Shown: positions 23,579 to 50,952, counted from the stretch's first letter. The stretch is 64,000 nt of DNA from Pseudolysinimonas sp. (GCF_051954455.1 NZ_JBQCHS010000024.1:44122-108121), one strand, 5' to 3'. A program made the numbers and translations. The notes: generated from the sequence alone by a model not told the origin.

Positions 23579-24724
23579 TCAGTACCGCGGCAGCTCCGGG
23601 TCGACCTGCACCGCGTAGGCGTCGATCCCGCCCGTGAGATGGCGCACCCGGGTGAAGCCCGCGCGCTCGAGCATGCCGAGAGCGCGCGAGGACCGCACGC
23701 CGTGGTGGCAGTACACGACGAGCGGTGCATCCCGATCGAGCTCGTCGAGCCGCTCCGGCAGCCGCCCGAGCGGGATGTGCACGGCGCCCGGCAGGGACAC
23801 GAAAGAGACCTCGGGATCCTCGCGCACGTCGAGCAGGACGGGCACCGGCTCGTGCACGCCGAGGGTGCTCGCCCCGGCCAGGAGCTTCGCCAGCTGCGGC
23901 GCGGTGACCGAGTGCGAGGTGTCGGGTTCCGGGATCGTCGTGCGCTCCTCGATGGAGCCCGGCCGCGGCGCGCCGTCCTCGCGGTGATACGTGAACTCCT
24001 GGAACGAGCCCGTGCGCGCGTCGTAGACGACGGCGCGGCCGAGGAGCGGATCGCCGCTTCCGCTCAGGAGCTTGAGGGTCTCGGCCGCCATGATGCCGGC
24101 GACGACCGAGCAGACCGCGGGCAGCACCCCGGCCGAATCGCCGTCGGCGTCCTCGACATCGTCGGTCGACGCGTCCTCCGGGTGCAGGTCGCGGTAGTCG
24201 ACCCCCCGCTCATCCCAGGCGACGCCCGCCCGGCCGACCCAGCCGAGCGCCGATCCCCAGACCATCGGGATGCCGCGGACCGCCGCCGCGTCGTTGGCGA
24301 GGTAGCGGGTCGCCCGGCTGTCGCTCCCGTCGACCAGAACGTCCGCGTCGAGGAGCAGGTCGAAGGTCGCGCCCTCGACGAAGCGCTCGACCCGGGCCGT
24401 GAGGTCCGCGTCGGGGGCGAGGCGGCGCAGCGCGTCGACCGCGGCCTCCGCCTTCGGCCTGCCGATGTCGTCGACGCCGAACAGGGTGTGCCGATGCAGG
24501 TGCGACTCCTCGACACGGGCGTCGTCGACGACCGTGATCCGGCCGATCCCGGCGCCCGCGAGCGTCGACAGGACGGCCGAGCCGATGCCTCCCGCCCCGA
24601 CCACGACGACGTGCGCGGACGCGAGGCTCTCCTGCCCGCTCGCGCCGAATCCCTCGAGCGCGCGCTGGCGGACGAACCGCGTCGCCCCGGGATCCACCGC
24701 CATGCCTCGATTCTGGTGGAACAT
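23579..24724 (-). CDS. MoeZ/MoeB-like E1 adenylyltransferase fused to a C-terminal rhodanese domain
   Basis: VVVVGAGGIGSAVLSTLAGAGIGRITVVDDARVEESHLHRH is the ThiF/MoeB nucleotide fold. The C-terminal LLDVRE...VVYCHHGVRS is a rhodanese active-site loop. An alternative start lies at 24703. Confidence 0.8.
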   Translation of the reverse strand: MFHQNRGMAVDPGATRFVRQRALEGFGASGQESLASAHVVVVGAGGIGSAVLSTLAGAGIGRITVVDDARVEESHLHRHTLFGVDDIGRPKAEAAVDALRRLAPDADLTARVERFVEGATFDLLLDADVLVDGSDSRATRYLANDAAAVRGIPMVWGSALGWVGRAGVAWDERGVDYRDLHPEDASTDDVEDADGDSAGVLPAVCSVVAGIMAAETLKLLSGSGDPLLGRAVVYDARTGSFQEFTYHREDGAPRPGSIEERTTIPEPDTSHSVTAPQLAKLLAGASTLGVHEPVPVLLDVREDPEVSFVSLPGAVHIPLGRLPERLDELDRDAPLVVYCHHGVRSSRALGMLERAGFTRVRHLTGGIDAYAVQVDPELPRY

Positions 24725-24746
24725 CCCGAGGTGCGCTCGGCGCCGG

Positions 24747-25433
24747 TCAGTCGGTGTGCGGGCGTCCGATCGTTCCGAGCACCGTGACGACGCCCGTGAT
24801 GACCGCGGCGAGGAGCGCCGGCCAGCCGAGCCCGAGGCGCAGAAGCAGGGCGCCCGCGGCGGCGCCGGCTCCGATCAGCAGGATCGCGCCCGCACGCCGG
24901 GCCCACGGGTGCGTCGCCGTGCCGCGCCCGAAGCGCGAGTCGAAGGCGAGGCCGACGAGCGTCGAGGTGACGACGACGGTCGTGATGTCGGCGACGCCGA
25001 TGTGCCGTGCCGCGCCCGCCTGCATGCCCATCGCCAGCGCGAGCAGCCCGGTGACGACGTAGGCGAGGGCCTGCGGACGCGAGTCGGCGCTCGCGAACGC
25101 CAGGATCGCCGCCGCGAGGAGGAGGAGCGAGACGACGCCGAGCAGCACCGTCGTGCGCAGCGACCAGCCGGCCGGCAGCCCGCGGAGCGTGCGCCCGGAG
25201 ATCGCCGCGCCGACGAGGAAGAGCGCGAGCGCGAGCAGCGGACCCCAGATCGGGAGCCCGTCCGCCCCGGTGAGCGCCATGGCCAGGATGACGACGTTGC
25301 CGGTCATGTTGCCCGTGAAGACGCGATCGAGCCCGAGGTAGCCGACCGCGTCGGCGACGCCCGTCGAGAACGTCAGCGCGAGCATGAGTCCGAGGTGCAG
25401 GCCCGCGGGATGGTCGCGGAGTCGGGACGCCAT
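24747..25433 (-). CDS. YoaK/DUF1275-family membrane protein
   Basis: The ATG at 25433 gives LALTFSTGVADAVGYLGLDRVFTGNMTGNVV, typical of DUF1275, with six hydrophobic helices. Confidence 0.7.
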   Translation of the reverse strand: MASRLRDHPAGLHLGLMLALTFSTGVADAVGYLGLDRVFTGNMTGNVVILAMALTGADGLPIWGPLLALALFLVGAAISGRTLRGLPAGWSLRTTVLLGVVSLLLLAAAILAFASADSRPQALAYVVTGLLALAMGMQAGAARHIGVADITTVVVTSTLVGLAFDSRFGRGTATHPWARRAGAILLIGAGAAAGALLLRLGLGWPALLAAVITGVVTVLGTIGRPHTD

Positions 25434-25466
25434 AGGCTGCAAGCTACCGGAGTCGCGGAGGGCCCC

Positions 25467-26516
25467 TTGACCGTGTTGCAGCCGGGCGCGGGGCCGATCC
25501 GCGCCGACGTCTATCTCCCCGCCGAGCCGGCCCGCCTGTTCTGGGGACGGCTGCCCTGCGCCGTCGACGAACCCGTGCTCGAGGTCGATCCGGGCGTCGA
25601 GGTGACCGTCGACACGCTCAGCCACGAGGGCCTCCTCGACGACCAGGGGTCGGATCCCGCCGCCTACTTCGGGCGCTTCGATGTCGAGGGCGTGCTCGAG
25701 GACGCGATCGCGCTCGCCGCGACGCGCACCCGCCACGTCGACGACGGCCCGCACGTCGTCACCGGTCCGATCCGGGTCCGCGGCGCGCGGCCCGGCGACG
25801 TGCTGTCGGTGCGCATCGTCGAGCTCCTGCCGCGCGTGCCCTACGGCGTCATCTCCAACCGGCACGGACGCGGCGCTCTGCCCGGCGAGTACCCGCTCGG
25901 CGGCGAGAGCGTCAGCGTCTTCGCGCGCGCCGACGGCGATCAGGGGGTCATCGACCGGGTCGAGGGCGGACCGGCGCAGGCGCGCTTCCCGCTCGCGCCG
26001 TTCCTCGGCCTCATCGGCGTCGCCGCGCCCGGAGCGGTCCGGCCGCACTCGGTGCCGCCGGACCGCTTCGGCGGCAACATCGACATCAACCTCCTCACCG
26101 AGGGGGCCACCCTGCACCTGCCCGTGCTCGCCGACGGCGCCCTCGCCTACGTCGGGGATCCGCACTTCGCGCAGGGCGACGGGGAGGTCGCGCTCACGGC
26201 GTTCGAGGCCTCGCTCCGGGCGACCGTGCGCTTCGATCTGACGCCCGGCGACGAGCCGTTCGCCCGGTTCGTGCAGGAGTTCGGCCCGGTCGCCGAGACC
26301 GACGAGCTCATCTGCCCGACGGGCCTGGACCCCGACCTCCGCGACGCGATGAAGAAGGCGGTCCGCGCCTCGATCGCCTACCTCACGACGCTGCACGGCT
26401 TCGACCACGAACACGCGTACGCCTACCTCAGCGCGGCGACCGACTTCCGCATCTCGCAGGTCGTCGACCGCACCACCGGGGTGCACGCCGCGATCCGCAA
26501 GGCCGACCTCGCGTGA
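25467..26516 (+). CDS. Acetamidase/formamidase (FmdA/AmdA) family amidohydrolase
   Basis: GPHVVTGPIRVRGARPGDVL...PFLGLIGVAP...GGNIDINLLTEGATLHLPV...GDPHFAQGDGEV. The start is uncertain: TTG 25467 or GTG 25473 sit behind a ggaggg SD, and ATG 25410 would overlap the divergent yoaK start. Confidence 0.8.
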   Translation: MTVLQPGAGPIRADVYLPAEPARLFWGRLPCAVDEPVLEVDPGVEVTVDTLSHEGLLDDQGSDPAAYFGRFDVEGVLEDAIALAATRTRHVDDGPHVVTGPIRVRGARPGDVLSVRIVELLPRVPYGVISNRHGRGALPGEYPLGGESVSVFARADGDQGVIDRVEGGPAQARFPLAPFLGLIGVAAPGAVRPHSVPPDRFGGNIDINLLTEGATLHLPVLADGALAYVGDPHFAQGDGEVALTAFEASLRATVRFDLTPGDEPFARFVQEFGPVAETDELICPTGLDPDLRDAMKKAVRASIAYLTTLHGFDHEHAYAYLSAATDFRISQVVDRTTGVHAAIRKADLA

Positions 26517-28084
26517 CGGGGCGGCACGCCGCGGCGCCCGAGCCTGAGCCGGAGGGGCTGCGGGAGGCCGTCCTCGGGTACGAGGCGGCGCTCATGGCCG
26601 ACGACGTGGCGAGCCTCGACGACTGGTTCGAGTCGGGACCGGAGACCCTCCGCGGCGACGCCGGCGGGCTCCTCGTGGGTCACGAGGCCATCGCCGCGTT
26701 CCGGCGGTCGCGAGGCGGGGCGGCGAAGCGCACGATCTCGCGGCTCGAGATCCGGGCTCTCGCCGACGACCTCGGCGTGGCGGTGCTCGTGGTCGACCCG
26801 GCGGCGGGCGGCCACGGGATGCTGACCCAGGTCTGGCGCCGCGCCGGCGGCCGTTGGCGGATCGTCGCGGCGCAGGTGGCCGCGCCCGCCCCCGCCGTCG
26901 AGGGGCGGGTCTGGCGGGTGGCGGGCGCGCCGCTCGTCGCCGCACCGGCGGGTACCGGCGACGCACCGCTGGCCGGGCGCTCGGTCGCGGTCAAGGACCT
27001 CTTCGCCGTGGCCGGATTCGCCATCGGCGCCGGCAACCCGGCGTGGCTCGCCGAGGCGGCGCTCGAGTCCGCGACGGCGCCCGCCGTGCAGCGGCTGCTC
27101 GAGGCCGGGGCGACGATCGCGGGCATCGCCCGCACGGACGAGTTCGCCTACGCGATCGCCGGCGTCAATGCGCACTACGGCGCCCCGCCGAACGCCGCGG
27201 TTCCCGGCGCGATCCCGGGCGGCTCGACGAGCGGGCCGGCGTCGGCCGTCGCCCTCGGGCAGGCCGACATCGGGCTCGGCACCGACACGGGCGGATCGGT
27301 CCGCGTCCCGGCCTCCTACCAGGGGCTCTGGGGCCTCCGCACGACGCACGGCGCGGTCGACCGCGCCGGTCTCCTCCCGCTCGCCCCGAGCTTCGACACC
27401 GTCGGCTGGCTGACGCGCGACGCCGCGACGCTGCGGGCCGCCCTCGTCGCGACGCTCGGCGAGACGACCGAGCCGCTCGGCGATCCGCTCGTCGCGCCCC
27501 GGCTCGCCTCCGTCGCCGACGCCGCCGTGACGGCGGCCTTCGGTGAGGCGGTCCGCGCCCTCGGCATCCCCGAGGCGATCGATCCGGGTGACCTCGACGA
27601 GCTGTTCGAGACGTTCCGCGTCGTGCAGGCGGCGGAGGCCTGGGCGAGCCACGGCGCATGGCTCACCGCGCACCCGGGGGCCGTCTCGGGCGCGGTCGCG
27701 GAGCGTTTCGCGATCGCCTCGCGGGTCACCGCCGGTCAGGAGGCCGCGGCCCGCGACCGCCTCGCGGCGCACCGGGAACGGCTCGACGCGCTGCTCGGGG
27801 ATCGCGTGCTCGTGCTGCCGTCGGCGTCGTCCGCGGCACCGGCGCTCGGCTCCGATCTCGAGGCGGCGCGCGCGGCCACGATGCGGCTGACCTGTATCGC
27901 GGGCATCACCGGGCGCCCGGGGCTCTCGGTGCCCCTGCTGCGCGTCCCCGCTCCGACCGGCGGCGACGCGCCGGTGGGGCTCGGACTCGTCGGACCGAGG
28001 GGATCCGACCTCGCGCTCGTCGACGTCGGAGCACGCATCGCGGCCGACCTCGCGCGACACGCGGCCGAAACACCGCGCGACTAG
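26513..28084 (+). CDS. Fusion protein: N-terminal AtzH-like/DUF3225 (NTF2-fold) domain plus C-terminal amidase-signature (AS) amidase
   Basis: GTGA overlap with the upstream stop. The N-terminal roughly 125 aa (YEAALMADDVASLDDWF...WRIVAAQV) is SnoaL/NTF2-like. The AS triad context is SVAVKDLF, GGSTSGPASAV and GTDTGGSVRVPAS. Confidence 0.8.
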   Translation: MTGRHAAAPEPEPEGLREAVLGYEAALMADDVASLDDWFESGPETLRGDAGGLLVGHEAIAAFRRSRGGAAKRTISRLEIRALADDLGVAVLVVDPAAGGHGMLTQVWRRAGGRWRIVAAQVAAPAPAVEGRVWRVAGAPLVAAPAGTGDAPLAGRSVAVKDLFAVAGFAIGAGNPAWLAEAALESATAPAVQRLLEAGATIAGIARTDEFAYAIAGVNAHYGAPPNAAVPGAIPGGSTSGPASAVALGQADIGLGTDTGGSVRVPASYQGLWGLRTTHGAVDRAGLLPLAPSFDTVGWLTRDAATLRAALVATLGETTEPLGDPLVAPRLASVADAAVTAAFGEAVRALGIPEAIDPGDLDELFETFRVVQAAEAWASHGAWLTAHPGAVSGAVAERFAIASRVTAGQEAAARDRLAAHRERLDALLGDRVLVLPSASSAAPALGSDLEAARAATMRLTCIAGITGRPGLSVPLLRVPAPTGGDAPVGLGLVGPRGSDLALVDVGARIAADLARHAAETPRD

Positions 28085-28096
28085 CCTGACGGCACC

Positions 28097-29323
28097 ATGA
28101 GCCCCGCCGTCCCGCCGCCGATCGACCCGCCCGCGCGCCTCCTCATGGGGCCGGGCCCCATCACGGCCGATCCGCGCGTGCTCCGCGCCATGTCGGCGCA
28201 GCTGGTCGGCCAGTACGACCCGGCGATGACGGCGTACATGGCCGAGACGCAGGAGCTCTACCGGGGGGTGTTCCGAACCCGGAACGACGCCACGCTGCTG
28301 GTCGACGGGACCTCGCGGGCCGGGATCGAGGCGGCGCTCGTCTCGCTCCTCGCGCCCGGCGACCGGGTGCTGGTGCCGATCTTCGGGCGGTTCGGGCACC
28401 TGCTGCGCGAGATCGCGGAGCGCTGCGGCGCCGAGGTCCACGTCATCGAGCGCGAGTGGGGCACCGTCTTCACCGCGGCCGAGATCGAGGCGACGCTCGC
28501 CGAGGTCCGCCCGAAGCTGCTCGCGGTCGTGCACGGCGACACCTCGACGACCGTCGCGCAGCCGCTCGAGGAGCTCGGCGCCCTCGCCGCGAAGCACGGC
28601 GCGCTGCTCTACACCGACACGACGGCGTCGCTCGGCGGCAACGAGTTCTGCGCCGACGAGTGGGGCGTCGACGTCGCGACCGCCGGGCTGCAGAAGTGCC
28701 TCGGCGGCCCGTCGGGCTCGGCGCCGATCACGCTGTCGGAGGCGGCCGTCGCGGTGGTCCGGGGACGCACGAGCGTCGAGGCCGGCATCCGGTCGGCGGG
28801 CGATCCCGTCAACCCCGACCCGATCCGCAGCAATTACTTCGATCTGGGCCAGATCCTCGCGTACTGGGGCCCGCAGCGGCTCAACCACCACACCGAGGCC
28901 ACGACGATGCTCTACGGCGCCCGGGAGTGCGCGCGCCTCGTGCTCGAGGAGGGCCTCGACGCGCGCATCGAACGGCACCGCGTGCACGGTGCGGCGATGA
29001 CCGCCGGGCTCGTCGGCCTCGGGCTCGACCTCTTCGGCGACCAGAGCGTGCGGATGCACAACGTCGTCGGCGTGCGGATCCCCGACGGGATCGACGGCGA
29101 CGCGGCCCGCGCCGCGCTGCTGGCCGACTACGGCATCGAGATCGGCACGAGCTTCGGCCCCTTGCACGGCAAGGTCTGGCGCGTCGGGGTCATGGGCTAC
29201 AACGCCCGGCGCGACACCGTGCTGACGACGCTCGCCGCACTCGAGCAGATGCTCCGCCGCGGCGGCGTCGCCGTGCGGGCGGGCGCGGGCGTCGACGCGG
29301 CCCTCGAGAGCTACGCGGCATGA
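28097..29323 (+). CDS. pucG: Class V aminotransferase, (S)-ureidoglycine--glyoxylate / alanine--glyoxylate aminotransferase-like
   Basis: LLMGPGPITADPRVLRAM...VVHGDTSTTVAQP...GLQKCLGGPSG (PLP Lys in QK). The gene symbol rests on context with allC only. Confidence 0.7.
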   Translation: MSPAVPPPIDPPARLLMGPGPITADPRVLRAMSAQLVGQYDPAMTAYMAETQELYRGVFRTRNDATLLVDGTSRAGIEAALVSLLAPGDRVLVPIFGRFGHLLREIAERCGAEVHVIEREWGTVFTAAEIEATLAEVRPKLLAVVHGDTSTTVAQPLEELGALAAKHGALLYTDTTASLGGNEFCADEWGVDVATAGLQKCLGGPSGSAPITLSEAAVAVVRGRTSVEAGIRSAGDPVNPDPIRSNYFDLGQILAYWGPQRLNHHTEATTMLYGARECARLVLEEGLDARIERHRVHGAAMTAGLVGLGLDLFGDQSVRMHNVVGVRIPDGIDGDAARAALLADYGIEIGTSFGPLHGKVWRVGVMGYNARRDTVLTTLAALEQMLRRGGVAVRAGAGVDAALESYAA

Positions 29324-29366
29324 CCGGTGCGATTCGTCGCACGCGCGGCGGCATTCCCGGCCGCGG

Positions 29367-30641
29367 ATGCGACAGAGGGCCGCGGCCGTGAGCGCGATCC
29401 TGCGCGGCGCCGCCGCGGCGGAGCGCGTGCTCGCGCGCGCGGACGAGCTCGCGGCCCTGTCGCGGACGTCGGGCGGCATCGATCGCCGCTACCTCACCCC
29501 GGAGCACCGCGCCGCGAACGCGCTCACCGCCGGCTGGCTCGCCGATGCCGGGCTCGTCGCCTGGCAGGACGCGGCCGGCAACCAGTGCGGACGGGTGCCG
29601 GGCGCGCCGGTCGACGCTCCCGTCGTGCTGCTCGGCTCGCACCTCGACTCCGTGCCGAACGCCGGGCGGTACGACGGGATCCTCGGGGTCCTCGTCGCCC
29701 TCGAAGTCGCCGAGCGCCTGCGCGACGACGCGACGACACTGCCGTTCGCGCTCGAGATCGTCGGGTTCGCCGACGAGGAGGGCACCCGCTTCGGAGCCAC
29801 CCTGCTCGGCTCGCGGGCCGTCGCCGGCACCTGGGACCCGGCGTGGGCCGAGCTGCGCGACGAGAACGGCGTCACCCTTCGCGAGGCGGCGCGCGGCTTC
29901 GGCCTCGACCCCGACCGGGTGGGTGAAGCGTCCCGCGCCGGCGAGCTCGTGGCCTACCTGGAGGCGCATATCGAGCAGGGGCCGCGTCTCGAGCGGGCCG
30001 ACCGGGCGCTCGGCGTGGTCACCCGGATCGCCGCGGCCGAGCGCCGCCTGCTCACGCTGAGGGGGGAGACCCGTCACGGCGCCACCCCGTGGGACATGCG
30101 CCACGACGCGCTCCTCGGCTTCGCGGAGGCCGATCTCGCCATCGAGCGCATCGTGCGCGACGCGGGCGCGTACGCCACCGTCGGGCACGTGGCGGTCCAG
30201 CCCGACGCGGTCAACGTCATCCCCGGCCTCGCCGAGTTCAGCCTCGACCTGCGCGACGCGACGGAGGAGGGCCGCGACGCTGCCTGGGAGCTGGTGCACG
30301 CCGAGCTGGTGGGCCTCGCCGACGCGCGCGGGCTGCGGCTCGACGTCGCCTCGACCCACCGCGCCGACGCGTGCATCGCCGATCCTCGGCTCCGGAACGC
30401 GATCGCGACCGGCATCGCGGCCACCGGCGACGCCGAGCCGATGGAGCTGTTCAGCGTCGCGGGCCACGACGCGATGGCGATCGCCGCGGCCGCGCCGGTC
30501 GCGATGCTGTTCGTCCGCTGCGCCGGCGGCATCAGTCACGCCCCCGAGGAGTCGGTGCGCGCTGACGACGTCGCCCTCGCGATCGACGCGCTCGAGGCCG
30601 CGGTGCGCGACCTCGCCCGCGGCGCCGCATCGGCCTCCTGA
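29367..30641 (+). CDS. allC: Allantoate amidohydrolase (M20 family, N-carbamoyl-amino-acid amidohydrolase-like)
   Basis: GSHLDSVPNAGRYDGILGVLVALEV...VGFADEEGTRFG...SVAGHDAM...RCAGGISHAPEE. Confidence 0.8.
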   Translation: MRQRAAAVSAILRGAAAAERVLARADELAALSRTSGGIDRRYLTPEHRAANALTAGWLADAGLVAWQDAAGNQCGRVPGAPVDAPVVLLGSHLDSVPNAGRYDGILGVLVALEVAERLRDDATTLPFALEIVGFADEEGTRFGATLLGSRAVAGTWDPAWAELRDENGVTLREAARGFGLDPDRVGEASRAGELVAYLEAHIEQGPRLERADRALGVVTRIAAAERRLLTLRGETRHGATPWDMRHDALLGFAEADLAIERIVRDAGAYATVGHVAVQPDAVNVIPGLAEFSLDLRDATEEGRDAAWELVHAELVGLADARGLRLDVASTHRADACIADPRLRNAIATGIAATGDAEPMELFSVAGHDAMAIAAAAPVAMLFVRCAGGISHAPEESVRADDVALAIDALEAAVRDLARGAASAS

Positions 30642-30690
30642 CGCGCGCGTCCCGCTGGCGCGTGCAGGGCGGCCGGACGGCGGGGCCGCG

Positions 30691-31200
30691 TCAGCGGTCG
30701 ATGTCGGCGCCGTCCCAGAGGTCGCCGCACTCGACGTCGTCGGCTCCGTGGGTGCGCAGGTAGGGGCCCGCGCCCCGGTCGCCGTGCACCGATGCGGCGA
30801 TCGCCTTCCAGTGGTCGCGCCCGAGCAGCACCGGGTGCCCGGGGCGCCCGTCGTAGACCGCCCGGCGGAGGGCGGCCGGGGTGGCGCCGGCGGCGACGCG
30901 CGCGGCCGCCGCGACCGGCATCCCGGGGAGGTCGACCAGCGTGACGAGCGCCGCATCGCCCGAGGCCGCCGCCAGCCCCGCCCGGAGCGATGCGGCGACG
31001 CCCTCGTCCCAGTCCGCCGCGACGACGACCTCGGCATCCGTCGGCACGATCGCCGCCCCGAGCACCGCGATCACGCGGTCGCAGCCCGCCTGACGCAGCA
31101 CGTCGACCGCGTGCGCCAGCCAGCCCTCGCGGAGGGCTTTCGGACCGCCGGCGCGCGTGCCGGCGCCGGCCGCCAGCACGATCCCGACGAGGCCCGTCAT
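30691..31200 (-). CDS. MobA/MocA-like nucleotidyltransferase (probable molybdenum cofactor cytidylyltransferase)
   Basis: The ATG at 31200 gives GIVLAAGAGTRAGGPKAL...VTLVDLPGM...GRPGHPVLL. It is near the xdh genes. Confidence 0.7.
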   Translation of the reverse strand: MTGLVGIVLAAGAGTRAGGPKALREGWLAHAVDVLRQAGCDRVIAVLGAAIVPTDAEVVVAADWDEGVAASLRAGLAAASGDAALVTLVDLPGMPVAAAARVAAGATPAALRRAVYDGRPGHPVLLGRDHWKAIAASVHGDRGAGPYLRTHGADDVECGDLWDGADIDR

Positions 31201-31216
31201 CGCTACAGTTGAGCAC

Positions 31217-31690
31217 ATGATCGCGCCGTCCGAGGAGCAGCTCGGGGCCGCGCTCGGGGTGCGGCGCTGGGTCGACGAGATCGCGGCCGGCGCGCCCTAC
31301 CCGGACCTCGCGGCGCTGCTGGACGCCGCTGCCGCCGCGACGCCGCTCAGCCCGGGCGAGATCGACGAGGCCATGGCGCACCACCCGCGGATCGGCGAGC
31401 GCCCGTCGGGCGAGGGCGCCGCGCAGGCCTTCAGCCGTCGCGAGCAGGCCTCCGCGGACGCGGACGATGCGGAGGCCAACGCGGCGATCGCGGCCGGCAA
31501 CGCCGCCTACGAGGAGCGCTTCGGCCGGGTCTTCCTGATCCGCGCGGCGGGCCGCACGCGCGCCGAGATCCTCGCCGAGCTGCGGCGCCGGCTCGAGCTC
31601 GACGACGCGACGGAGCTCGCGATCGTCGGCGAGCAGTTGCGCGAGATCGCGCTCCTGCGGCTCCGCTCGACGTTCGAGGCGGCGGCGTGA
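31217..31690 (+). CDS. uraD: 2-oxo-4-hydroxy-4-carboxy-5-ureidoimidazoline (OHCU) decarboxylase
   Basis: The ATG at 31217 gives AHPRIGE...YEERFGRVFLIRAAGRTRAEIL...EIALLRL. Confidence 0.85.
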   Translation: MIAPSEEQLGAALGVRRWVDEIAAGAPYPDLAALLDAAAAATPLSPGEIDEAMAHHPRIGERPSGEGAAQAFSRREQASADADDAEANAAIAAGNAAYEERFGRVFLIRAAGRTRAEILAELRRRLELDDATELAIVGEQLREIALLRLRSTFEAAA

Positions 31691-32004
31691 GCCGGATCAC
31701 GACCCACGTCCTCGACGCGGTCCGCGGCCGGCCGGCGGCGGGCGTCGCGGTCACGCTGAGCGGGCCCGGCGGCACGGTCGCGACCGGCGCGACCGACGAC
31801 GACGGCCGCATCCGCGAGCTCGGCCCGGAGGAGCTCCCGGAGGGCGACTATCGGATCGAGTTCGCGACGGGCGCGTGGTTCGACGCGCAGGGCGTCGACG
31901 CGTTCTACCCGCGCGTCGTCATCGACTTCCGGCTGGGCTCCGGCCACCACCACGTGCCGCTGCTCCTGTCGCCCTTCGCGTACTCCACCTATCGCGGGTC
32001 CTGA
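31687..32004 (+). CDS. uraH: 5-hydroxyisourate hydrolase (transthyretin-like)
   Basis: ITTHVLDAVRGRPAAGV...YHVPLLLSPFAYSTYRGS (the C-terminal YRGS signature). GTGA overlap with uraD. Confidence 0.9.
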   Translation: MSRITTHVLDAVRGRPAAGVAVTLSGPGGTVATGATDDDGRIRELGPEELPEGDYRIEFATGAWFDAQGVDAFYPRVVIDFRLGSGHHHVPLLLSPFAYSTYRGS

Positions 32005-32021
32005 GCCGCGCGGACGCCGGC

Positions 32022-32486
32022 TCAGTACGCCGTGCGGGCCTCGTGCGCGAGCCACGCGTCGAAGGGGGCGGCGGCGTCGGCGGGGCGGTCCTCCTCGATC
32101 GTGACGTGCCACTCGGAGCGGGGCCGCTCGAACAGCTCGTAGAAGGCCCGGTCGTCGAAGCCGCCGCGGGCGGCGTCGTGCCGGTCCGCCGCGTAGACGA
32201 CCCTGTCGATCCGCGCCCAGAGCGCCGCCGACAGGCAGAGCGGGCACGGCTCGCACGAGGTGTAGAGCGTGGCGCCCTCGAGCGAGAAGGCGCCGGCCGC
32301 CGCGCAGGCGCGCCGGATGGCGACGACCTCGGCGTGCGCGGTGGGGTCGTTGTCGCGCGTGACGCGGTTCTGCCCCTCGGCGAGCACCGCGCCGTCCGCC
32401 CCGACGACGAGCGCGCCGAACGGGCCCCCGCCCGACGCGACGTTGTCGACCGCGAGCTCGACCGCGCGGTCCAGGTGGCCCGTCAT
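32022..32486 (-). CDS. CDA-fold nucleoside/nucleobase deaminase (guanine deaminase GuaD-type by context)
   Basis: The ATG at 32486 gives GGPFGALVV...HAEVVAIRRA...TSCEPCPLCLSA, a zinc-binding H(C)AE/PCxxC motif. Confidence 0.72.
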   Translation of the reverse strand: MTGHLDRAVELAVDNVASGGGPFGALVVGADGAVLAEGQNRVTRDNDPTAHAEVVAIRRACAAAGAFSLEGATLYTSCEPCPLCLSAALWARIDRVVYAADRHDAARGGFDDRAFYELFERPRSEWHVTIEEDRPADAAAPFDAWLAHEARTAY

Positions 32487-33373
32487 GCCGCACCCAGCGA
32501 CGCGCGCCACGCCTCGTGCGCCGCGGGGGCGTCCTCCCGCGAGATGGCGGCCTCGATGAGGCCGTAGGGCCGGTCGTCGGCGTGGAACACCTCGCCGTGC
32601 TGCTCGATGCCGAAGCGGCCGATGTCGTAGTCGAAGTGGTGCTTGTTGGGCGCCGTCAGCCGGATCTCCACGATCTCGGGATGCCGGTCCAGCACCGCCG
32701 TGCCCATGTGCCACAGCGTCTGCTGCAGTGCGAGCGAGTGCAGGGTCGCGAACTGCTCGATCATGAGCGCTCGCGCGGCGTCGTAGGAGGCGTCCCAATC
32801 GACGTCGGTCCCGGCGTAGCGCCACTTCACGTCGAGCGAGGTCGCCATGATCCGGTCGTCGGTCTCCGGGAGGGTCGTGTACCCGTCCTTCAGGAAGCCG
32901 TGGAACTCGGATCCGGTCGACTTGAGGATCACGAGGTCCTTGAGCCCCGCGATCACGTACTCGCCGGTCGCGTCGACGGTCACGGCCGCGGTGCGCACCT
33001 CCTGCCCCTTCCGCAGGAAGGTGTGGTCGTGCTCGGCGCCGCCGACCACCGCGCGCTCCCAGGCGTACTCCTCGATCTCGATCCGGGCTCCCGTCACGGG
33101 CGCGGTCTCGGCGACGAAGTGCCGGGCGAGCTCGAGTCCGTACTGCTCGATCGTCGCGATCCCCTTCTCCTTCGCGAAGGCGTAGGCGGTGTTCTTCTGC
33201 GTGTCGGTCGGCAGCACCTTCGACTGGTCGCCGACGAGGTACGCGTCGGCGAAGTCGCCGCGCAGGGCGGTCGTCACGTTGAGGTCGACGATCTCGTGCC
33301 GGGCGGTGTCGCGCACGATCCGCACGACGCGCGACTCGGCCTTGCCGTACTGGTGCTCGAGGCGGTAGGTCAT
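32483..33373 (-). CDS. pucL: Factor-independent urate hydroxylase (uricase)
   Basis: YGKAESRVVRIVRD...VLPTDTQKNT...LKSTGSEFHGF...SLALQQTLW...APNKHHF. Confidence 0.9.
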   Translation of the reverse strand: MTYRLEHQYGKAESRVVRIVRDTARHEIVDLNVTTALRGDFADAYLVGDQSKVLPTDTQKNTAYAFAKEKGIATIEQYGLELARHFVAETAPVTGARIEIEEYAWERAVVGGAEHDHTFLRKGQEVRTAAVTVDATGEYVIAGLKDLVILKSTGSEFHGFLKDGYTTLPETDDRIMATSLDVKWRYAGTDVDWDASYDAARALMIEQFATLHSLALQQTLWHMGTAVLDRHPEIVEIRLTAPNKHHFDYDIGRFGIEQHGEVFHADDRPYGLIEAAISREDAPAAHEAWRASLGAA

Positions 33374-34686
33374 CAGCGGGTCCTTTCGAGGAGATGTCCG
33401 AGGTCGGGGGCGGCGCCCCGCAGCCAGGTGCGGCGCACCTCGCCGCGCAGCTCCCGACCGTCGTAGGCGCTCACGGGGTTCCGGTGCAGCAGCTCGCCGG
33501 CGCGGATCACGCGGCGCGCGTCGGGGGCGAAGACGGCGAGGTCGGCGTCGGCGCCCGGCGCGATCGCGCCCTTCGCGGGGGTGAGGCCCGCGAACCGGGC
33601 GGGGGCGGACGACATCCACTCGACGACGCGCTCGAGCGGGACACCGCGCCCGCGCGCCGCCGTCCAGACGGCCGACAGGCCGAGCTGGAGCCCCGCGATC
33701 CCGCCCCAGGCGACGCCGAAGTCGCCGTCGCCGGCGAACTTGAGCTCCGCGGTCGAGGGGGAGTGGTCGGTCACCACGAGGTCGATGTCGCCGTCGAGCA
33801 GCCCCCGCCAGAGCGCGTCGCGGTTCTCCTCGGAGCGGATCGGCGGCGCGCACTTGTACTGGGTCGCCCCGTTCGGCACGCCCTCCGCGGCGAGCGAGAG
33901 GTAGTGCGGACAGGTCTCGACCGTGATCGGCAGCCCCTCGGCGCGCGCGGCGCGCAGCTCGGGGAGGGCGGCGGCGGACGACAGGTGCAGGATGTGGGCC
34001 CGCGCGCCCGTCCGACGCACGCCCGCGATCACGTTCGAGATCGCCGCGACCTCCGCCTCGTCGGGCCGCGACGCCACGTAGCGCCCGTAGTCGGGTCCGC
34101 CCGCGTTCGCGTGGTCGTGGAGCACGCGGGGGTCCTCGGCGTGCACGATGAGCAGCCCTCCGAATCCGGCGATCTCCTCGAGCGCGGCGTCGAGCTGCCG
34201 CGCGTCGAGGTGTCCGAACTCCGGCACCCCGCTCGGCGCCAGGAAGCACTTGAACCCGAAGACTCCGGCCTCCCAGAGGCCGCGCAGCGATCCCAGGTTC
34301 TCGGGCACGGCGCCGCCCCAGAAGCCGACGTCGATCCGCACCGCGCCGCGGGCGGCCTCCTGCTTGACCCGGAGGTTCTCGACCGTGGTGGTCGGCGGGA
34401 TGCTGTTGAGCGGCATGTCGAGCACGGCGGTCACCCCGCCGGCCGCGGCGGCCGCGGTCGCGGAGGCGAAGCCCTCCCAGTCGGTGCGGCCCGGCTCGTT
34501 GATGTGCACGTGCGTGTCGACGAGCCCTGGCAGCAGGACCTCGTCGGGGGCGAGTACGACGGTCTCGGCGGCCGGCTCGGGCCCGGCGTCGAGGGTCGCG
34601 ACCCGCCCGTCGCGCACGCCGACGGCCGCCTCGCGGAAGGCGCCGTCGACGAGGGCCCGCCCGCGGACCACGAGGTCGAGGCTCAT
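33373..34686 (-). CDS. allB: Allantoinase
   Basis: LPGLVDTHVHINEPGRTDWEGF...FKCFL...IVHAED...HILHLSS...VTDHSP. Confidence 0.9.
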   Translation of the reverse strand: MSLDLVVRGRALVDGAFREAAVGVRDGRVATLDAGPEPAAETVVLAPDEVLLPGLVDTHVHINEPGRTDWEGFASATAAAAAGGVTAVLDMPLNSIPPTTTVENLRVKQEAARGAVRIDVGFWGGAVPENLGSLRGLWEAGVFGFKCFLAPSGVPEFGHLDARQLDAALEEIAGFGGLLIVHAEDPRVLHDHANAGGPDYGRYVASRPDEAEVAAISNVIAGVRRTGARAHILHLSSAAALPELRAARAEGLPITVETCPHYLSLAAEGVPNGATQYKCAPPIRSEENRDALWRGLLDGDIDLVVTDHSPSTAELKFAGDGDFGVAWGGIAGLQLGLSAVWTAARGRGVPLERVVEWMSSAPARFAGLTPAKGAIAPGADADLAVFAPDARRVIRAGELLHRNPVSAYDGRELRGEVRRTWLRGAAPDLGHLLERTR

Positions 34687-35693: not shown

Positions 35694-36318
35694 GGCGCGT
35701 CACCGTCCAGCCGTCCCCGCCCCGGGTGTCGGCGTGCCGGGCGTACTCGAGCCGGCGGGAAGCGGTCGCGGGGTCGCCCTGCCAGAAGGCGAGCCGGTGC
35801 GGCACGACGCGGTAGCCGATCCAGCTCGGCGCCGGGGCGAAGCCGTCCGCGTGCGCGGCTGCGAACCCCGCCCACGCCGAGCGGCGGTCGTCGAGCGGCA
35901 GGGTCGCGAACTCGTCGGTGTTCTGCCAGGCGAGCTGCTGGAGGTACGGGGAGCGGCGGGCGTACGCCGCGCGATCCGCCTCCGCACCGGCCGGCTCGGC
36001 GCGACCCTGCACGACGAGCTGGTGCGCGTCGGCGGCGAGGTGCATGACGAGCGCGACCGCGGGGTCCGCGGCGAGCTGCGCCGCCTTCCGCGACCGCGCG
36101 TCGGTGTGCAGCAGGAAGCCGTCGCGGCTCCAGCCGCTGAGGAGCACGGTCCGCGCGTCGGGCACGCCGCCGTCGAGGGTGGCGAGGGTCATGGTGGGAC
36201 GCACGGGGTCCTCGTCGTCGGGCAGCCAGGCGGCGACGAGCTCCCACGGGTCGGTCGGCGGCTCGTCCGGCAGGTGGAGGACCGCGGTGGCGCCGGCGCG
36301 GGCGGCCGCGGGGCTCAC
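35683..36318 (-). CDS. Pyridoxamine 5'-phosphate oxidase (PdxH-like) family flavoprotein
   Basis: DPWELVAAWL...MTLATLDGGVPDARTVLL...FLLHTDARSRKAAQL...GYRVVPHRLAFWQG...RRLEY. Confidence 0.7.
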   Translation of the reverse strand: MSPAAARAGATAVLHLPDEPPTDPWELVAAWLPDDEDPVRPTMTLATLDGGVPDARTVLLSGWSRDGFLLHTDARSRKAAQLAADPAVALVMHLAADAHQLVVQGRAEPAGAEADRAAYARRSPYLQQLAWQNTDEFATLPLDDRRSAWAGFAAAHADGFAPAPSWIGYRVVPHRLAFWQGDPATASRRLEYARHADTRGGDGWTVTRRAG

Positions 36319-37097
36319 GCGGCGCCGCCGCGGAAGCCGGCGATCTCGTGCAGCGCCTCGACGCCGCTGCGGATGCCGCGCTCCACGAGCTCGGCGCCGT
36401 GCTCCGCGTTCGCGCCCGTCGCGTCGCCGATCACCCCCGCGGGGTCGAAGTCGTTCGAGAGCCAGCCGAAGCTGACCGCCCCGCCGTTGAACTTGAGGTG
36501 GCGCAGCGCCGCCACGTCCTCCGGGATCCAGCGCGCGGCCTTGCTGATGTCGACGAGGTCGGGGCGCAGGTGCAGGATCACGCTCGTCTCGCCGTAGCCG
36601 CCGTGGATGCCGAGCCCCTTCTCGTCGGGCGACCCGTTCGCGCCGTCTCCCGCGGCTCCCGCCCCGGTGCCCATGAGGAAGGTGCGCAGCCCGTAGAGGC
36701 GCCGGATCTCGCGGAGCGCGACCTGCAGGAGGGCGACGTTGCCGCCGTGCCCGTTGAAGAACACGAGCGTGCGCGCCGGGGTCCGCGACACCGACTCGCC
36801 GATCTCGACGACCGTGCGCATGAGGGTCTCCCAGCCGATCCAGACCGTGCCCGGCGCCCAGTGGTGCTCGTCCGACTTCGAGTAGGCGATCGCCGGCAGC
36901 CGCCAGACATCGAGGCCGTCCTCGACGGCGGCGTCGACGAGCCGGCGCGAGATGAGGTCGGCCATGAGGTAGTCGGTGGCGAGCGGCAGGTGGGGTCCGT
37001 GGTGCTCGATCGACCCGACCGGCAGGACGACGACGGAGTCCGACGTGAGCGTGTCGGCGAGCACGGGCCCGGCGAGCTCGGTCAGCTCGCGCGTCAT
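36315..37097 (-). CDS. Creatininase-family amidohydrolase (creatininase / ArfB / MftE superfamily)
   Basis: VVLPVGSIEHHGPHLPLATD...FFNGHGGN...GIHGGYGETS. Confidence 0.8.
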   Translation of the reverse strand: MTRELTELAGPVLADTLTSDSVVVLPVGSIEHHGPHLPLATDYLMADLISRRLVDAAVEDGLDVWRLPAIAYSKSDEHHWAPGTVWIGWETLMRTVVEIGESVSRTPARTLVFFNGHGGNVALLQVALREIRRLYGLRTFLMGTGAGAAGDGANGSPDEKGLGIHGGYGETSVILHLRPDLVDISKAARWIPEDVAALRHLKFNGGAVSFGWLSNDFDPAGVIGDATGANAEHGAELVERGIRSGVEALHEIAGFRGGAA

Positions 37098-47414: not shown

Positions 47415-47422
47415 GGAGCGCC

Positions 47423-50880: not shown

Positions 50881-50952
50881 GTGTCGGCCACGTAACACCC
50901 GGGTCGGGTCGCCGCGGCGAGGGCGCCGGGGCGGCGATGCGAGGATGGACGC

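What the first reader, a model, noticed from the sequence alone, without database searches (positions are those of the whole stretch)
25467..30641. Formamidase-family amidase plus AtzH-domain::amidase fusion, coupled to pucG-like and allC: possible undescribed oxalurate/oxamate branch of allantoate degradation
What the sequence shows:
- Four co-directional genes: an FmdA/AmdA-family amidase, then (GTGA overlap at 26513) a 523-aa fusion of an NTF2-like AtzH/DUF3225 domain to an amidase-signature domain with an intact Lys / cis-Ser / Ser context.
- Twelve nt later comes a class V aminotransferase, then an M20 allantoate amidohydrolase.
- I find no ureidoglycine aminohydrolase, ureidoglycolate lyase/hydrolase, urease or oxamate transcarbamylase in the window.

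Established knowledge:
- AllC yields (S)-ureidoglycine.
- PucG-type aminotransferases convert it with glyoxylate to oxalurate plus glycine.
- AtzH and the AS amidases AtzE/AtzF act on carboxylated urea compounds (1,3-dicarboxyurea, 1-carboxybiuret, allophanate) that are chemically close to oxalurate.

Inference: the fusion protein may hydrolyse oxalurate or a carboxy-urea intermediate, and the FmdA-like enzyme may hydrolyse the resulting oxamate or formamide-type amide. That would give a fully hydrolytic, urease-independent route.
Basis: partly seen in the sequence, partly recalled or inferred. Interest (0 to 1): 0.6.

Follow-up and report, generated by a model that had tools for sequence, protein, structure and literature searches.

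The report
Actinobacterial urea-free oxalurate breakdown operon
A four-gene operon inside a purine-degradation island most likely finishes allantoate breakdown without making urea, using an untested fused amidase and a formamidase-like enzyme in place of the Klebsiella HpxWXYZ proteins; the route is known in outline, but these enzymes are not.

Summary
Window 25467-30641 holds four co-directional, tightly packed genes: an FmdA/AmdA-family amidase, a 523-aa AtzH-like::amidase-signature (AS) fusion, a close orthologue of Klebsiella HpxJ / B. subtilis PucG, and an AllC-type allantoate amidohydrolase. They lie next to allantoinase, uricase, HIU hydrolase, OHCU decarboxylase and xanthine dehydrogenase.

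The genome (2.99 Mb, 100% complete) has none of these over threshold: ureidoglycine aminohydrolase, ureidoglycolate lyase, urease, urea carboxylase, AllG or GGT/HpxW. Oxalurate made by the aminotransferase therefore has no other visible outlet.

The route itself is already outlined in the Klebsiella HPX system (hpxJK plus hpxWXYZ). The enzymes are what differ:
- The AS domain belongs to a short-amidase clade (PRK08310-like), separate from AtzE/HpxY.
- It is fused to the HpxZ/AtzH-like domain, and no HpxX/AtzG was found.
- An FmdA-like enzyme stands where HpxW would be.

The FmdA-like/fusion pair is conserved across Actinomycetota (67 of 80 loci), and some relatives fuse it into one protein.

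Most likely mechanism (inferred, untested): oxalurate to N-carboxyoxamate (AS domain), to oxamate (AtzH-like domain), to oxalate (FmdA-like enzyme).

Verdict: a new variant of a known kind. First readers of this scan noted the same fusion in two other genomes.

The parts
25467..26516 (+). FmdA/AmdA-family amidase (349 aa). Proposed oxamate amidohydrolase, standing in for GGT-type HpxW.
   Evidence: PF03069 at 105 bits, but only 72.9 bits against the formamidase equivalog cut-off of 500. The family motifs GGNID and GDPHFAQGDGE are invariant in 25 orthologues. It lies next to the fusion in 67 of 80 related loci. It is fused in frame to the fusion in P0038, P0143 and P0154.
26513..28084 (+). AtzH-like::amidase-signature fusion protein (523 aa). 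Proposed oxalurate amidohydrolase plus N-carboxyl-removing domain.
   Evidence: Domains. The AlphaFold2 model has mean pLDDT 92.9 and pTM 0.80. The best fold match is AtzE 6C62. Its start overlaps the FmdA-like stop (GTGA).
26561..26881 (+). AtzH/HpxZ-like NTF2-fold domain (aa 17-123)
   Evidence: PF11533 at 71.6 bits; NCBIfam HpxZ at 59.5 bits, below its cut-off of 135. It is 36% identical to Klebsiella HpxZ. AtzH residues Tyr22, Arg46 and Arg73 align with Y23, R47 and R73. Those residues are kept in 113, 118 and 119 of 119 homologues.
26951..28054 (+). Short amidase-signature domain (aa ~147-514), PRK08310-like
   Evidence: NF006169 at 365.3 bits (cut-off 391). AtzE family scores 140-142 bits, allophanate hydrolase 133-143 and GatA 140. 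K161, S238 and S262 are invariant in 119 of 119 homologues. The tree places it in a clade apart from AtzE+HpxY and from AtzF.
28097..29323 (+). Ureidoglycine aminotransferase, orthologue of HpxJ/PucG
   Evidence: PDB 3NNK (Klebsiella ureidoglycine-glyoxylate aminotransferase) at 558.9 bits and 3ISL (PucG) at 448.3 bits. It is 61% identical to Klebsiella HpxJ by tblastn.
29367..30641 (+). Allantoate amidohydrolase (AllC/HpxK/PucF type)
   Evidence: NF006775 at 473.7 bits (cut-off 479) and TIGR01879 at 303 bits (cut-off 204). It is the only member of this M20 subfamily in the genome.
24747..25433 (-). Divergent DUF1275 (YoaK-like) membrane protein. A conserved neighbour of unknown role.
   Evidence: PF06912 at 120.9 bits. 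It is present, mostly divergent and upstream of the FmdA-like gene, in 30 of 80 related loci.
31157..34686 (.). Upstream pathway genes that feed the operon: OHCU decarboxylase 31157-31690 (+), HIU hydrolase 31687-32004 (+), guanine deaminase 32022-32510 (-), uricase 32483-33373 (-), allantoinase AllB 33373-34686 (-)
   Evidence: Pfam. TIGR03178 allantoinase at 532.8 bits, cut-off 357.85.

Best explanation
The four genes form the last part of a urea-free purine and allantoin nitrogen-salvage route.

Proposed steps:
1. AllC converts allantoate to (S)-ureidoglycine, NH3 and CO2.
2. The HpxJ/PucG orthologue transfers the amino group to a 2-oxo acid. Glyoxylate is available because the genome has isocitrate lyase. 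The product is oxalurate.
3. The amidase-signature domain of the fusion hydrolyses the terminal ureido amide of oxalurate, giving N-carboxyoxamate and NH3. This mirrors AtzE acting on 1-carboxybiuret.
4. The rigidly attached AtzH/HpxZ-like domain removes the N-carboxyl group, giving oxamate and CO2. This mirrors AtzH acting on 1,3-dicarboxyurea.
5. The FmdA/AmdA-family enzyme hydrolyses oxamate to oxalate and NH3. It fills the role of the unrelated GGT-type HpxW of Klebsiella.

Shown here: gene identities, intact catalytic residues, conserved synteny, gene fusions, and absence of the alternative enzymes searched for.

Inferred: the substrates, and which of the two amidases acts first.
For: 1. 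Identity of the flanking steps. The aminotransferase scores 559 bits against Klebsiella HpxJ (3NNK) and 448 against PucG. The M20 enzyme is AllC-type and unique in the genome. Allantoinase, uricase, HIUase, OHCU decarboxylase and XDH are in the same window.
2. No other outlet found. The 100%-complete genome has no UGlyAH, no ureidoglycolate lyase (26), no urease (27), no GGT/HpxW (28), no AllG (57) and no urea carboxylase carboxyltransferase part (90).
3. Homology to the Klebsiella and atrazine modules. The N-domain is AtzH-like and hits NCBIfam HpxZ. It keeps AtzH Tyr22, Arg46 and Arg73. [quoted passage not shown] This was confirmed on locus L103.
4. Synteny. In the 80 best loci from named Actinomycetota, the FmdA-like gene is adjacent in 67, hpxJ is within 6 kb in 49 and allC in 46. 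An independent arrangement reads AT5-AllC-allantoinase-fusion-NCS1 permease-racemase.
5. Unbiased sample. In 121 evenly drawn genomes of the class, 5 have an HpxJ orthologue. All 5 have a homologue of the fusion within about 5 kb. None of 14 HpxJ-positive genomes has UGlyAH over the cut-off.
6. Rosetta-stone fusions. FmdA-AtzH-AS occurs as a single protein in three 50%-identity clusters (P0038, P0143, P0154). P0038 sits in the same synteny as this window. There is also an FmdA-AS fusion (P0164) and a reversed AS-AtzH fusion (P0212).
7. Step assignment. An unfused amidase of the same short-AS clade (P0180, 41% identity) lies directly after a GGT gene. That GGT is 52-63% identical to Klebsiella HpxW. 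This suggests that GGT-type and FmdA-type enzymes are alternative partners for the same amidase.
Against: - No enzyme of this module has been assayed. In the papers I could search, even Klebsiella HpxXYZ has only an inferred function.
- The AS domain is not an orthologue of HpxY/AtzE. It is 29% identical, scores 140 bits against a cut-off of 425, and forms a separate clade.
- The HpxZ equivalog cut-off is not reached (59.5 against 135).
- The FmdA-like/fusion pair also occurs without allC or hpxJ nearby in about 31 of 80 loci. On a Rhodococcus plasmid it sits among transporters and flavin monooxygenases. A more distant fusion sits beside an isochorismatase-type (BiuH-like) gene. Substrates may therefore differ between clades.
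- Some relatives lack the AtzH domain (L096).
- Six of 11 genomes in which the FmdA-like gene is not adjacent to the fusion have no FmdA-like orthologue at all.
- No oxalate-consuming enzyme was found; there is no oxalyl-CoA decarboxylase. The fate of the end product is open.
Confidence: 0.6

Rival explanations
1. Same pathway, but with the two amidases in the opposite order. The FmdA-like enzyme deamidates the ureido group of oxalurate. The AtzH-like domain removes the N-carboxyl group. The short AS domain then hydrolyses oxamate to oxalate, acting like a malonamidase.
For: The domain order in the triple fusions is FmdA-AtzH-AS, which would match the reaction order. The short AS domain resembles malonamidase E2, which hydrolyses a small carboxy-amide, in size and fold (TM-score 0.80 by target).
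Against: All characterised partners of AtzH-type proteins are AS amidases that act on the terminal ureido amide (AtzE; PMC6219798). The best fold match is AtzE. A clade-mate amidase sits next to a close HpxW homologue. Under this rival, that locus would carry two oxamate hydrolases and no oxalurate enzyme. Loci with the fusion but no FmdA-like gene still sit in allantoin operons.
Confidence: 0.2
2. The FmdA-like/fusion pair does not act on oxalurate. It acts on another carboxylated or acylated urea, such as allophanate, 1-carboxybiuret, or a triuret/biuret-type side product of urate oxidation. It is only co-located with the allantoate genes.
For: The pair is portable. It occurs without allC or hpxJ in about 31 of 80 loci and on a Rhodococcus plasmid. 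A distant fusion neighbours an isochorismatase-family (BiuH/TrtA-like) gene. AtzE and AtzH themselves act on carboxybiuret-derived compounds.
Against: This genome would then have no enzyme for the oxalurate made by its HpxJ orthologue. All 5 of 5 HpxJ-positive genomes in an even sample have the homologue within 5 kb. The genes are translationally coupled with hpxJ and allC in one operon. No biuret hydrolase or cyanuric acid hydrolase gene lies in the operon.
Confidence: 0.12
3. The fusion is an allophanate hydrolase-type enzyme that disposes of urea-derived allophanate, with the FmdA-like enzyme acting as an ordinary formamidase or acetamidase.
For: Weak AS-family similarity to allophanate hydrolases (133-143 bits; fold matches to AtzF).
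Against: The scores are far below the allophanate hydrolase cut-offs of 487-511. The fusion forms a clade separate from AtzF. The genome has no urea carboxylase and no urease. It has no enzyme searched for that would produce urea from ureides. The FmdA equivalog scores 72.9 against a cut-off of 500.
Confidence: 0.04

Closest known systems
Klebsiella HPX pathway, oxalurate branch (hpxK, hpxJ, hpxW-hpxX-hpxY-hpxZ)
   Same: - The logic and chemistry are the same: allantoate amidohydrolase, then ureidoglycine aminotransferase, then oxalurate, then oxamate, then oxalate, with no urea formed.
- HpxJ is orthologous (61% identity). HpxK/AllC is homologous (48%).
- An AtzH/HpxZ-like domain is present (36% identity to HpxZ), coupled to an AS amidase.
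   Different: - The AS partner belongs to a different AS clade from HpxY/AtzE (29% identity).
- It is fused to the HpxZ-like domain rather than encoded separately.
- No HpxX/AtzG small subunit was found (the control genomes gave no signal, so this is not proof of absence).
- The GGT-type oxamate amidohydrolase HpxW is absent from the genome. A conserved FmdA/AmdA-family enzyme takes its place in the operon.
AtzEG-AtzH of the Pseudomonas sp. ADP cyanuric acid operon (PMC6219798)
   Same: An AS amidase deamidates a terminal ureido group, and an NTF2-fold AtzH then removes the resulting N-carboxyl group. AtzH Tyr22, Arg46 and Arg73 are conserved here. AtzE is the best structural match for the AS domain.
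   Different: The substrate context is purine and allantoate rather than cyanuric acid. There is no AtzD, AtzF or AtzG. The AS domain is short: it lacks about 55-70 N-terminal residues present in AtzE, HpxY and AtzF. It scores 140 bits against the AtzE family cut-off of 425.
E. coli oxamate branch: AllFGH oxamic transcarbamylase plus AllK carbamate kinase (PMC11326118)
   Same: It also disposes of oxalurate without urease, in a urease-negative organism.
   Different: It is phosphorolytic and yields ATP, it leaves oxamate, and its proteins are unrelated. AllG is absent from this genome.
B. subtilis PucF/PucG
   Same: An allantoate amidohydrolase is paired with a ureidoglycine-glyoxylate aminotransferase (PucG 3ISL, 448 bits).
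   Different: From my own knowledge, B. subtilis is thought to use PucG as a branch point, and no oxalurate hydrolase has been assigned there. In this window the aminotransferase appears to be the only route.
PRK08310-type short amidases and malonamidase E2
   Same: The AS domain scores 365 bits on NF006169 (cut-off 391). It groups with unfused amidases of about 385-410 aa. Its fold is close to malonamidase E2.
   Different: It carries an N-terminal AtzH-like domain. No member of this clade is characterised, as far as the papers I could search show.

Membership tests
Amidase signature (AS) family, PF01425 | Pfam match over gathering score, with the Lys / cis-Ser / Ser catalytic triad | tested here: met
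   159.9 bits against a cut-off of 27. K161, S238 and S262 are present and invariant in 119 of 119 homologues. The fold matches AtzE, MAE2 and GatA.
AtzE family amidohydrolase (includes Klebsiella HpxY) | Score over the NCBIfam cut-off (TIGR02715 425.75; NF006631 461), and clustering with AtzE/HpxY | tested here: not met
   140.3 and 142.5 bits. It is 29% identical to HpxY. AtzE+HpxY form their own clade with 100/99 support, outside the short-AS clade.
AtzE family amidohydrolase (includes Klebsiella HpxY) | A small GatC-like partner subunit (AtzG/HpxX) encoded next to it | tested here: inconclusive
   There is no room for a small ORF between the operon genes. NF033624 HpxX gave no match in the genome, but the control genomes gave no signal either.
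AtzH-like / HpxZ (PF11533; NCBIfam NF033625) | Pfam match over gathering score, with the residues needed for AtzH catalysis (Tyr22, Arg46; also Arg73) | tested here: met
   71.6 bits against a cut-off of 27. Y23, R47 and R73 align with AtzH Tyr22, Arg46 and Arg73 and are conserved in the family.
AtzH-like / HpxZ (PF11533; NCBIfam NF033625) | Equivalog-level match to HpxZ (cut-off 135 bits) | tested here: not met
   59.5 bits; 36% identity to Klebsiella HpxZ.
Allophanate hydrolase (AtzF/DUR1,2 type) | Score over the NCBIfam cut-off, a C-terminal allophanate hydrolase domain, and a urea carboxylase partner | tested here: not met
   133-143 bits against cut-offs of 487-511. The protein ends with the AS domain. 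Urea carboxylase matches are limited to biotin carboxylase and biotinyl parts. It forms a clade separate from AtzF.
PRK08310 amidase (NF006169) | Score over the curated cut-off of 391 bits | tested here: not met
   365.3 bits, just under the cut-off, covering model positions 20-393 of 395. It is the nearest curated family, but the model describes unfused proteins.
Formamidase FmdA (NF045496) / FmdA_AmdA (PF03069) | Pfam family membership; equivalog-level match to formamidase | tested here: inconclusive
   The Pfam test is met (105 bits against 27). The formamidase equivalog test is not met (72.9 against 500). It is a family member but not a formamidase orthologue. The nearest solved structure, 3B9T, carries no functional name in its entry title.
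Ureidoglycine aminotransferase (HpxJ/PucG) | Close full-length similarity to the two characterised enzymes, and adjacency to an allantoate amidohydrolase | tested here: met
   3NNK at 558.9 bits over residues 9-406; 3ISL at 448.3 bits. The next gene is AllC.
Allantoate amidohydrolase (AllC) | Score over the curated cut-offs | tested here: met
   TIGR01879 hydantase subfamily at 303 bits against 204. NF006775 at 473.7 against 479, marginally under. It is 48% identical to Klebsiella HpxK.
Oxamate amidohydrolase HpxW (GGT family, PF01019) | A GGT-family protein in the cluster or genome | tested here: not met
   No PF01019 match in the genome. No GGT in any of 80 related loci.

The most novel reading that the evidence does not exclude
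FmdA-like enzyme, AtzH-like domain and short AS amidase together form a self-contained, portable 'acyl-urea stripping' unit. It would run acyl-urea to N-carboxy-amide to amide to acid, releasing both ureido nitrogens as ammonia without urea. It would work without an AtzG-type subunit and is sometimes one polypeptide. It would contain the first oxalurate amidohydrolase to be pinned down and the first oxamate amidohydrolase of the FmdA/AmdA family. Different actinobacterial clades would reuse it for other N-heterocycle breakdown products.
Probability: 0.35. Interest if true: 0.7.

Novelty: new variant of a known kind. Interest (0 to 1): 0.55.

Why it matters
- **A missing step.** Oxalurate to oxamate is the least documented step of urea-free purine nitrogen salvage. 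In the papers I could search, it is only inferred even for Klebsiella HpxXYZ.
- **A simpler system to test.** This actinobacterial version packs the step into one soluble 523-aa protein that gives a confident model. It has a conserved partner that probably replaces HpxW.
- **Annotation.** Close homologues of the fusion were found in 80 loci across Microbacteriaceae, Cellulomonas, Nocardioides, Streptomyces, Pseudonocardia, Micromonospora, Arthrobacter and Rothia. Sources currently label them only 'amidase' or 'AtzH-like domain-containing protein'. A direct assay would let these genes be annotated.
- **Physiology.** It would explain how urease-negative actinobacteria recover all four nitrogens of allantoin.
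- **Ecology.** It predicts oxalate as an end product of purine degradation in soil and plant-associated actinobacteria.

Tried and rejected
- **Complex prediction.** A predicted complex of the fusion with the FmdA-like enzyme (collected) returned 'no answer'. It is not used as evidence either way.
- **Promoter and terminator scan** of 24600-31300 found nothing. This is unsurprising at 75% G+C.
- **Complementary GGT.** I looked for a GGT/HpxW gene in related loci that lack the FmdA-like gene. None was found in any of the 80 loci, so GGT is not the local substitute in Actinomycetota.
- **Silent controls.** The allantoicase (PF03561) and HpxX (NF033624) searches of the genome gave no hit, but the control genomes were also silent. 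These absences are weak.
- **Papers not held.** Hicks and Ealick 2016 on HpxW, and French and Ealick 2010 on HpxJ. Statements about them rest on how other papers cite them and on my own knowledge.
- **ESM Atlas.** The look-up of the FmdA-like protein returned only generic 'acetamidase/formamidase' clusters.
- **Short contigs.** The contexts of unfused amidases P0121 and P0131 were on contigs too short to be informative.
- **Allophanate hydrolase reading.** Considered and rejected; see the fourth rival explanation.

Full report
**1. Observation**

The window is about 73% G+C. Codon-position G+C singles out four consecutive + strand genes:
- 25467-26516 (GC3 0.95)
- 26513-28084 (0.93)
- 28097-29323 (0.97)
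- 29367-30641 (0.95)

The first two overlap by GTGA. The second and third are 12 nt apart, and the third and fourth 43 nt apart.

Pfam and NCBIfam identify them as follows:
- An FmdA_AmdA-family protein. It scores 105 bits on Pfam but only 72.9 against the formamidase equivalog cut-off of 500.
- A 523-aa protein with an AtzH-like domain (aa 17-123) followed by an amidase-signature (AS) domain (aa ~147-514).
- A class V aminotransferase.
- An AllC-type M20 amidohydrolase.

**2. Surroundings**

The operon sits in a complete purine-catabolic island:
- MobA-like cytidylyltransferase (30691-31218, -)
- OHCU decarboxylase (31157-31690)
- HIU hydrolase (31687-32004)
- guanine deaminase (32022-32510, -)
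- uricase (32483-33373, -)
- allantoinase AllB (33373-34686, -; TIGR03178 532.8 bits)
- further on, XdhC and xanthine dehydrogenase subunits (46458-50898)

A DUF1275 membrane protein gene (24747-25433, -) is transcribed divergently from the FmdA-like gene, with only 33 nt between the two starts.

**3. The flanking enzymes are the known ones**

The aminotransferase matches the solved Klebsiella ureidoglycine-glyoxylate aminotransferase HpxJ (3NNK) at 558.9 bits and B. subtilis PucG (3ISL) at 448.3 bits. It is 61% identical to Klebsiella HpxJ. The M20 enzyme is the only member of its subfamily in the genome.

**4. The genome offers no other outlet**

The assembly is 2.99 Mb in 35 contigs and is rated 100% complete.

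| Enzyme searched | Result |
|---|---|
| Ureidoglycine aminohydrolase (TIGR03214) | none |
| Ureidoglycolate lyase (PF04115) | none |
| Urease alpha subunit | none over threshold |
| GGT-family protein (HpxW type) | none |
| AllG, oxamic transcarbamylase | none |
| Urea carboxylase | only biotin carboxylase and biotinyl parts matched |
| AtzH-like domain | only the one in the fusion |
| Isocitrate lyase | present, so glyoxylate is available as amino acceptor |
| Oxalyl-CoA decarboxylase | none |

Ureidoglycine can therefore only go through the aminotransferase. The resulting oxalurate has no candidate enzymes other than the two amidases of the operon.

**5. The route is already outlined**

Esquirol et al. 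[quoted passage not shown]

I fetched the Klebsiella locus (L103). It holds:
- hpxZ, annotated 'oxalurate catabolism protein'
- an AtzE-family amidohydrolase (HpxY)
- hpxX
- a GGT gene (HpxW, frameshifted in that record)
- hpxU
- an ABC transporter
- HpxJ
- HpxK

HpxW is cited as a characterised oxamate amidohydrolase (PMC5270733, citing Hicks and Ealick 2016). PMC12625717 calls hpxY an 'oxalurate amidohydrolase'. I found no paper that assays HpxXYZ. The pathway logic is therefore known in outline, but its central step is biochemically unproven.

**6. The enzymes here are not the Klebsiella ones**

AtzH-like domain:
- It is 36% identical to HpxZ.
- It keeps the AtzH residues reported as needed for catalysis. 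Tyr22, Arg46 and also Arg73 align with Y23, R47 and R73.
- These are conserved in 113, 118 and 119 of 119 homologues.

AS domain:
- It is only 29% identical to HpxY, whereas HpxY is 54% identical to AtzE.
- It scores 365 bits on NF006169 (PRK08310 amidase, cut-off 391). It scores about 140 bits on AtzE, allophanate hydrolase and GatA.
- In a maximum-likelihood tree of 47 AS domains, the short amidases form a clade (support 94/92). That clade is separate from AtzE+HpxY (100/99) and from AtzF. All N-terminal AtzH fusions fall in one sub-clade (100/98).
- The domain lacks the roughly 55-70 N-terminal residues that AtzE, HpxY and AtzF have before the catalytic Lys.

Other points:
- The AlphaFold2 model is confident (pLDDT 92.9, pTM 0.80). 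A short linker and a strand (134-142) bridge the two domains.
- The best fold matches are AtzE, a Thermus amidase and malonamidase E2.
- No HpxX/AtzG-like ORF was found (weak control).

**7. Comparative evidence for the functional link**

- Named homologues are annotated only as 'AtzH-like domain-containing protein', 'DUF3225 domain-containing protein' or 'amidase'.
- The 80 best loci in species-representative genomes come from Microbacteriaceae, Cellulomonas, Nocardioides, Streptomyces, Pseudonocardia, Amycolatopsis, Micromonospora, Arthrobacter, Rothia and others.
- In those loci the AtzH part is present in 78. The FmdA-like gene is adjacent in 67. hpxJ is within 6 kb in 49 and allC in 46. 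Urate genes are frequent.
- A more distant fusion (P0141) sits in a differently ordered allantoin operon: aminotransferase, AllC, allantoinase, fusion, NCS1 permease, racemase.
- In an even sample of 121 genomes of the class, 5 have an HpxJ orthologue. All 5 carry a homologue of the fusion within about 5 kb. Three further genomes match only the AS part.
- None of 14 HpxJ-positive genomes has UGlyAH over the cut-off. Related genomes are not independent, so these counts are descriptive.

**8. Fusions**

- Three clusters at 50% identity encode single proteins with the order FmdA-AtzH-AS (P0038 866 aa, P0143 960 aa, P0154 904 aa).
- One cluster encodes FmdA-AS (P0164), and one has the reversed order AS-AtzH (P0212).
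- P0038 lies in the same synteny as this window: ThiF/rhodanese, then the triple fusion, aminotransferase, M20, MobA-like, OHCU decarboxylase, HIUase, deaminase, uricase and allantoinase.
- This is classical Rosetta-stone evidence that the three activities act in one process.

**9. Which amidase does which step**

An unfused clade-mate of the AS domain (P0180, 41% identity) lies directly after a GGT gene. That GGT is 52-63% identical to Klebsiella HpxW.

The simplest reading is that the short AS amidase carries out the oxalurate step. It would then partner either an HpxW-type or an FmdA-type oxamate amidohydrolase, which is a non-orthologous displacement.

By analogy with AtzE and AtzH:
- The AS domain would deamidate the ureido group of oxalurate to N-carboxyoxamate.
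- The AtzH-like domain, with its two conserved arginines suited to a dicarboxylate, would remove the N-carboxyl group to give oxamate.
- The FmdA-like enzyme would give oxalate and NH3.

The opposite order (FmdA-like first, AS last) is not excluded. It fits the domain order of the triple fusions and the resemblance to malonamidase.

**10. Caveats**

- The pair is portable. About 31 of 80 loci lack allC and hpxJ nearby.
- A Rhodococcus plasmid has the pair among transporters and flavin monooxygenases.
- A distant fusion neighbours an isochorismatase-family gene.
- One relative has the FmdA-like gene plus a short AS gene without the AtzH domain (L096). This is consistent with N-carboxyl loss being partly spontaneous.
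- Six of 11 genomes in which the FmdA-like gene is not adjacent to the fusion have no orthologue anywhere.
- The fate of oxalate is unknown.

**11. Verdict**

The variant is real, widespread and uncharacterised:
- a different AS clade
- fusion to the AtzH-like domain
- no AtzG/HpxX found
- an FmdA-family enzyme where HpxW would be

First readers of this scan noted the same fusion in two other genomes.

Noticed in passing
window 24747-25433 (-): A DUF1275 (YoaK-like) membrane protein is transcribed divergently from the FmdA-like gene, with only 33 nt between the two starts. It is conserved at that position in 30 of 80 related loci. It might be a transporter for a pathway intermediate or for the end product (oxalate or oxamate), but this is unknown.
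   Followed up: partly
L121:7001-9601 (protein P0038); also P0143, P0154, P0164: Natural single-polypeptide fusions FmdA-AtzH-AS (866-960 aa) and FmdA-AS (793 aa). P0038 lies in the same purine synteny as this window.
   Followed up: partly
L083:6542-8107 (protein P0212): A reversed domain order (AS then AtzH) in a TetR-controlled cluster with two branched-chain-type ABC importers and a weak polysaccharide-deacetylase-family hit, which could be a PuuE-type allantoinase. This looks like an independent fusion event.
   Followed up: no
L096 (G098:C10:1479-5678): A Microbacteriaceae-like genome has the FmdA-like gene followed after 66 nt by a short AS gene with no detectable AtzH-like domain, next to urate genes. 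The AtzH-like part therefore seems dispensable in some lineages.
   Followed up: partly
L120 (Rhodococcus sp. PD04 plasmid NZ_CP142144.1, 147944-150570): The FmdA-like/fusion pair is plasmid-borne. It is embedded among peptide-type ABC and MFS transporters and LLM flavin monooxygenases, without allC or hpxJ. This suggests reuse of the module for another substrate.
   Followed up: no
L091:8001-10305 (protein P0200): A distant AtzH::AS fusion overlaps the start of an isochorismatase-family (BiuH/TrtA-like) gene in a nucleoside-catabolic cluster (PfkB, PNP_UDP_1, cupin, amidohydrolase). This is a possible biuret or triuret-type context.
   Followed up: no
L085:5379-8194: A close homologue of Klebsiella HpxW (52-63% identity) is followed directly by an unfused short AS amidase and preceded by an NMT1-type ABC importer. 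No AtzH-like gene was found by tblastn. This may be a two-gene oxalurate/oxamate module in another phylum.
   Followed up: partly
P0157 (882 aa), P0191 (638 aa), P0243 (1063 aa): Further odd architectures of the same short-AS clade: Amidohydro_1-AS, GntR/FCD-AS and ABC exporter-AS. Some may be merged gene calls.
   Followed up: no
L103 (Klebsiella pneumoniae CP125156.1, filed as a plasmid, 5.37 Mb): This record is a chromosome-sized replicon in the plasmid collection. Its hpxW (GGT) gene matches in two frames, which indicates a frameshift near locus position 5886. Its hpxK is not in the gene table.
   Followed up: partly
window 36315-37277 (-) and related loci: A creatininase-family gene occurs near the FmdA-like/fusion pair in 9 of 80 loci (Streptomyces, Pseudonocardia, Amycolatopsis) that lack allC and hpxJ. 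In this window it belongs to the neighbouring twelve-gene operon already noted by the scan.
   Followed up: no
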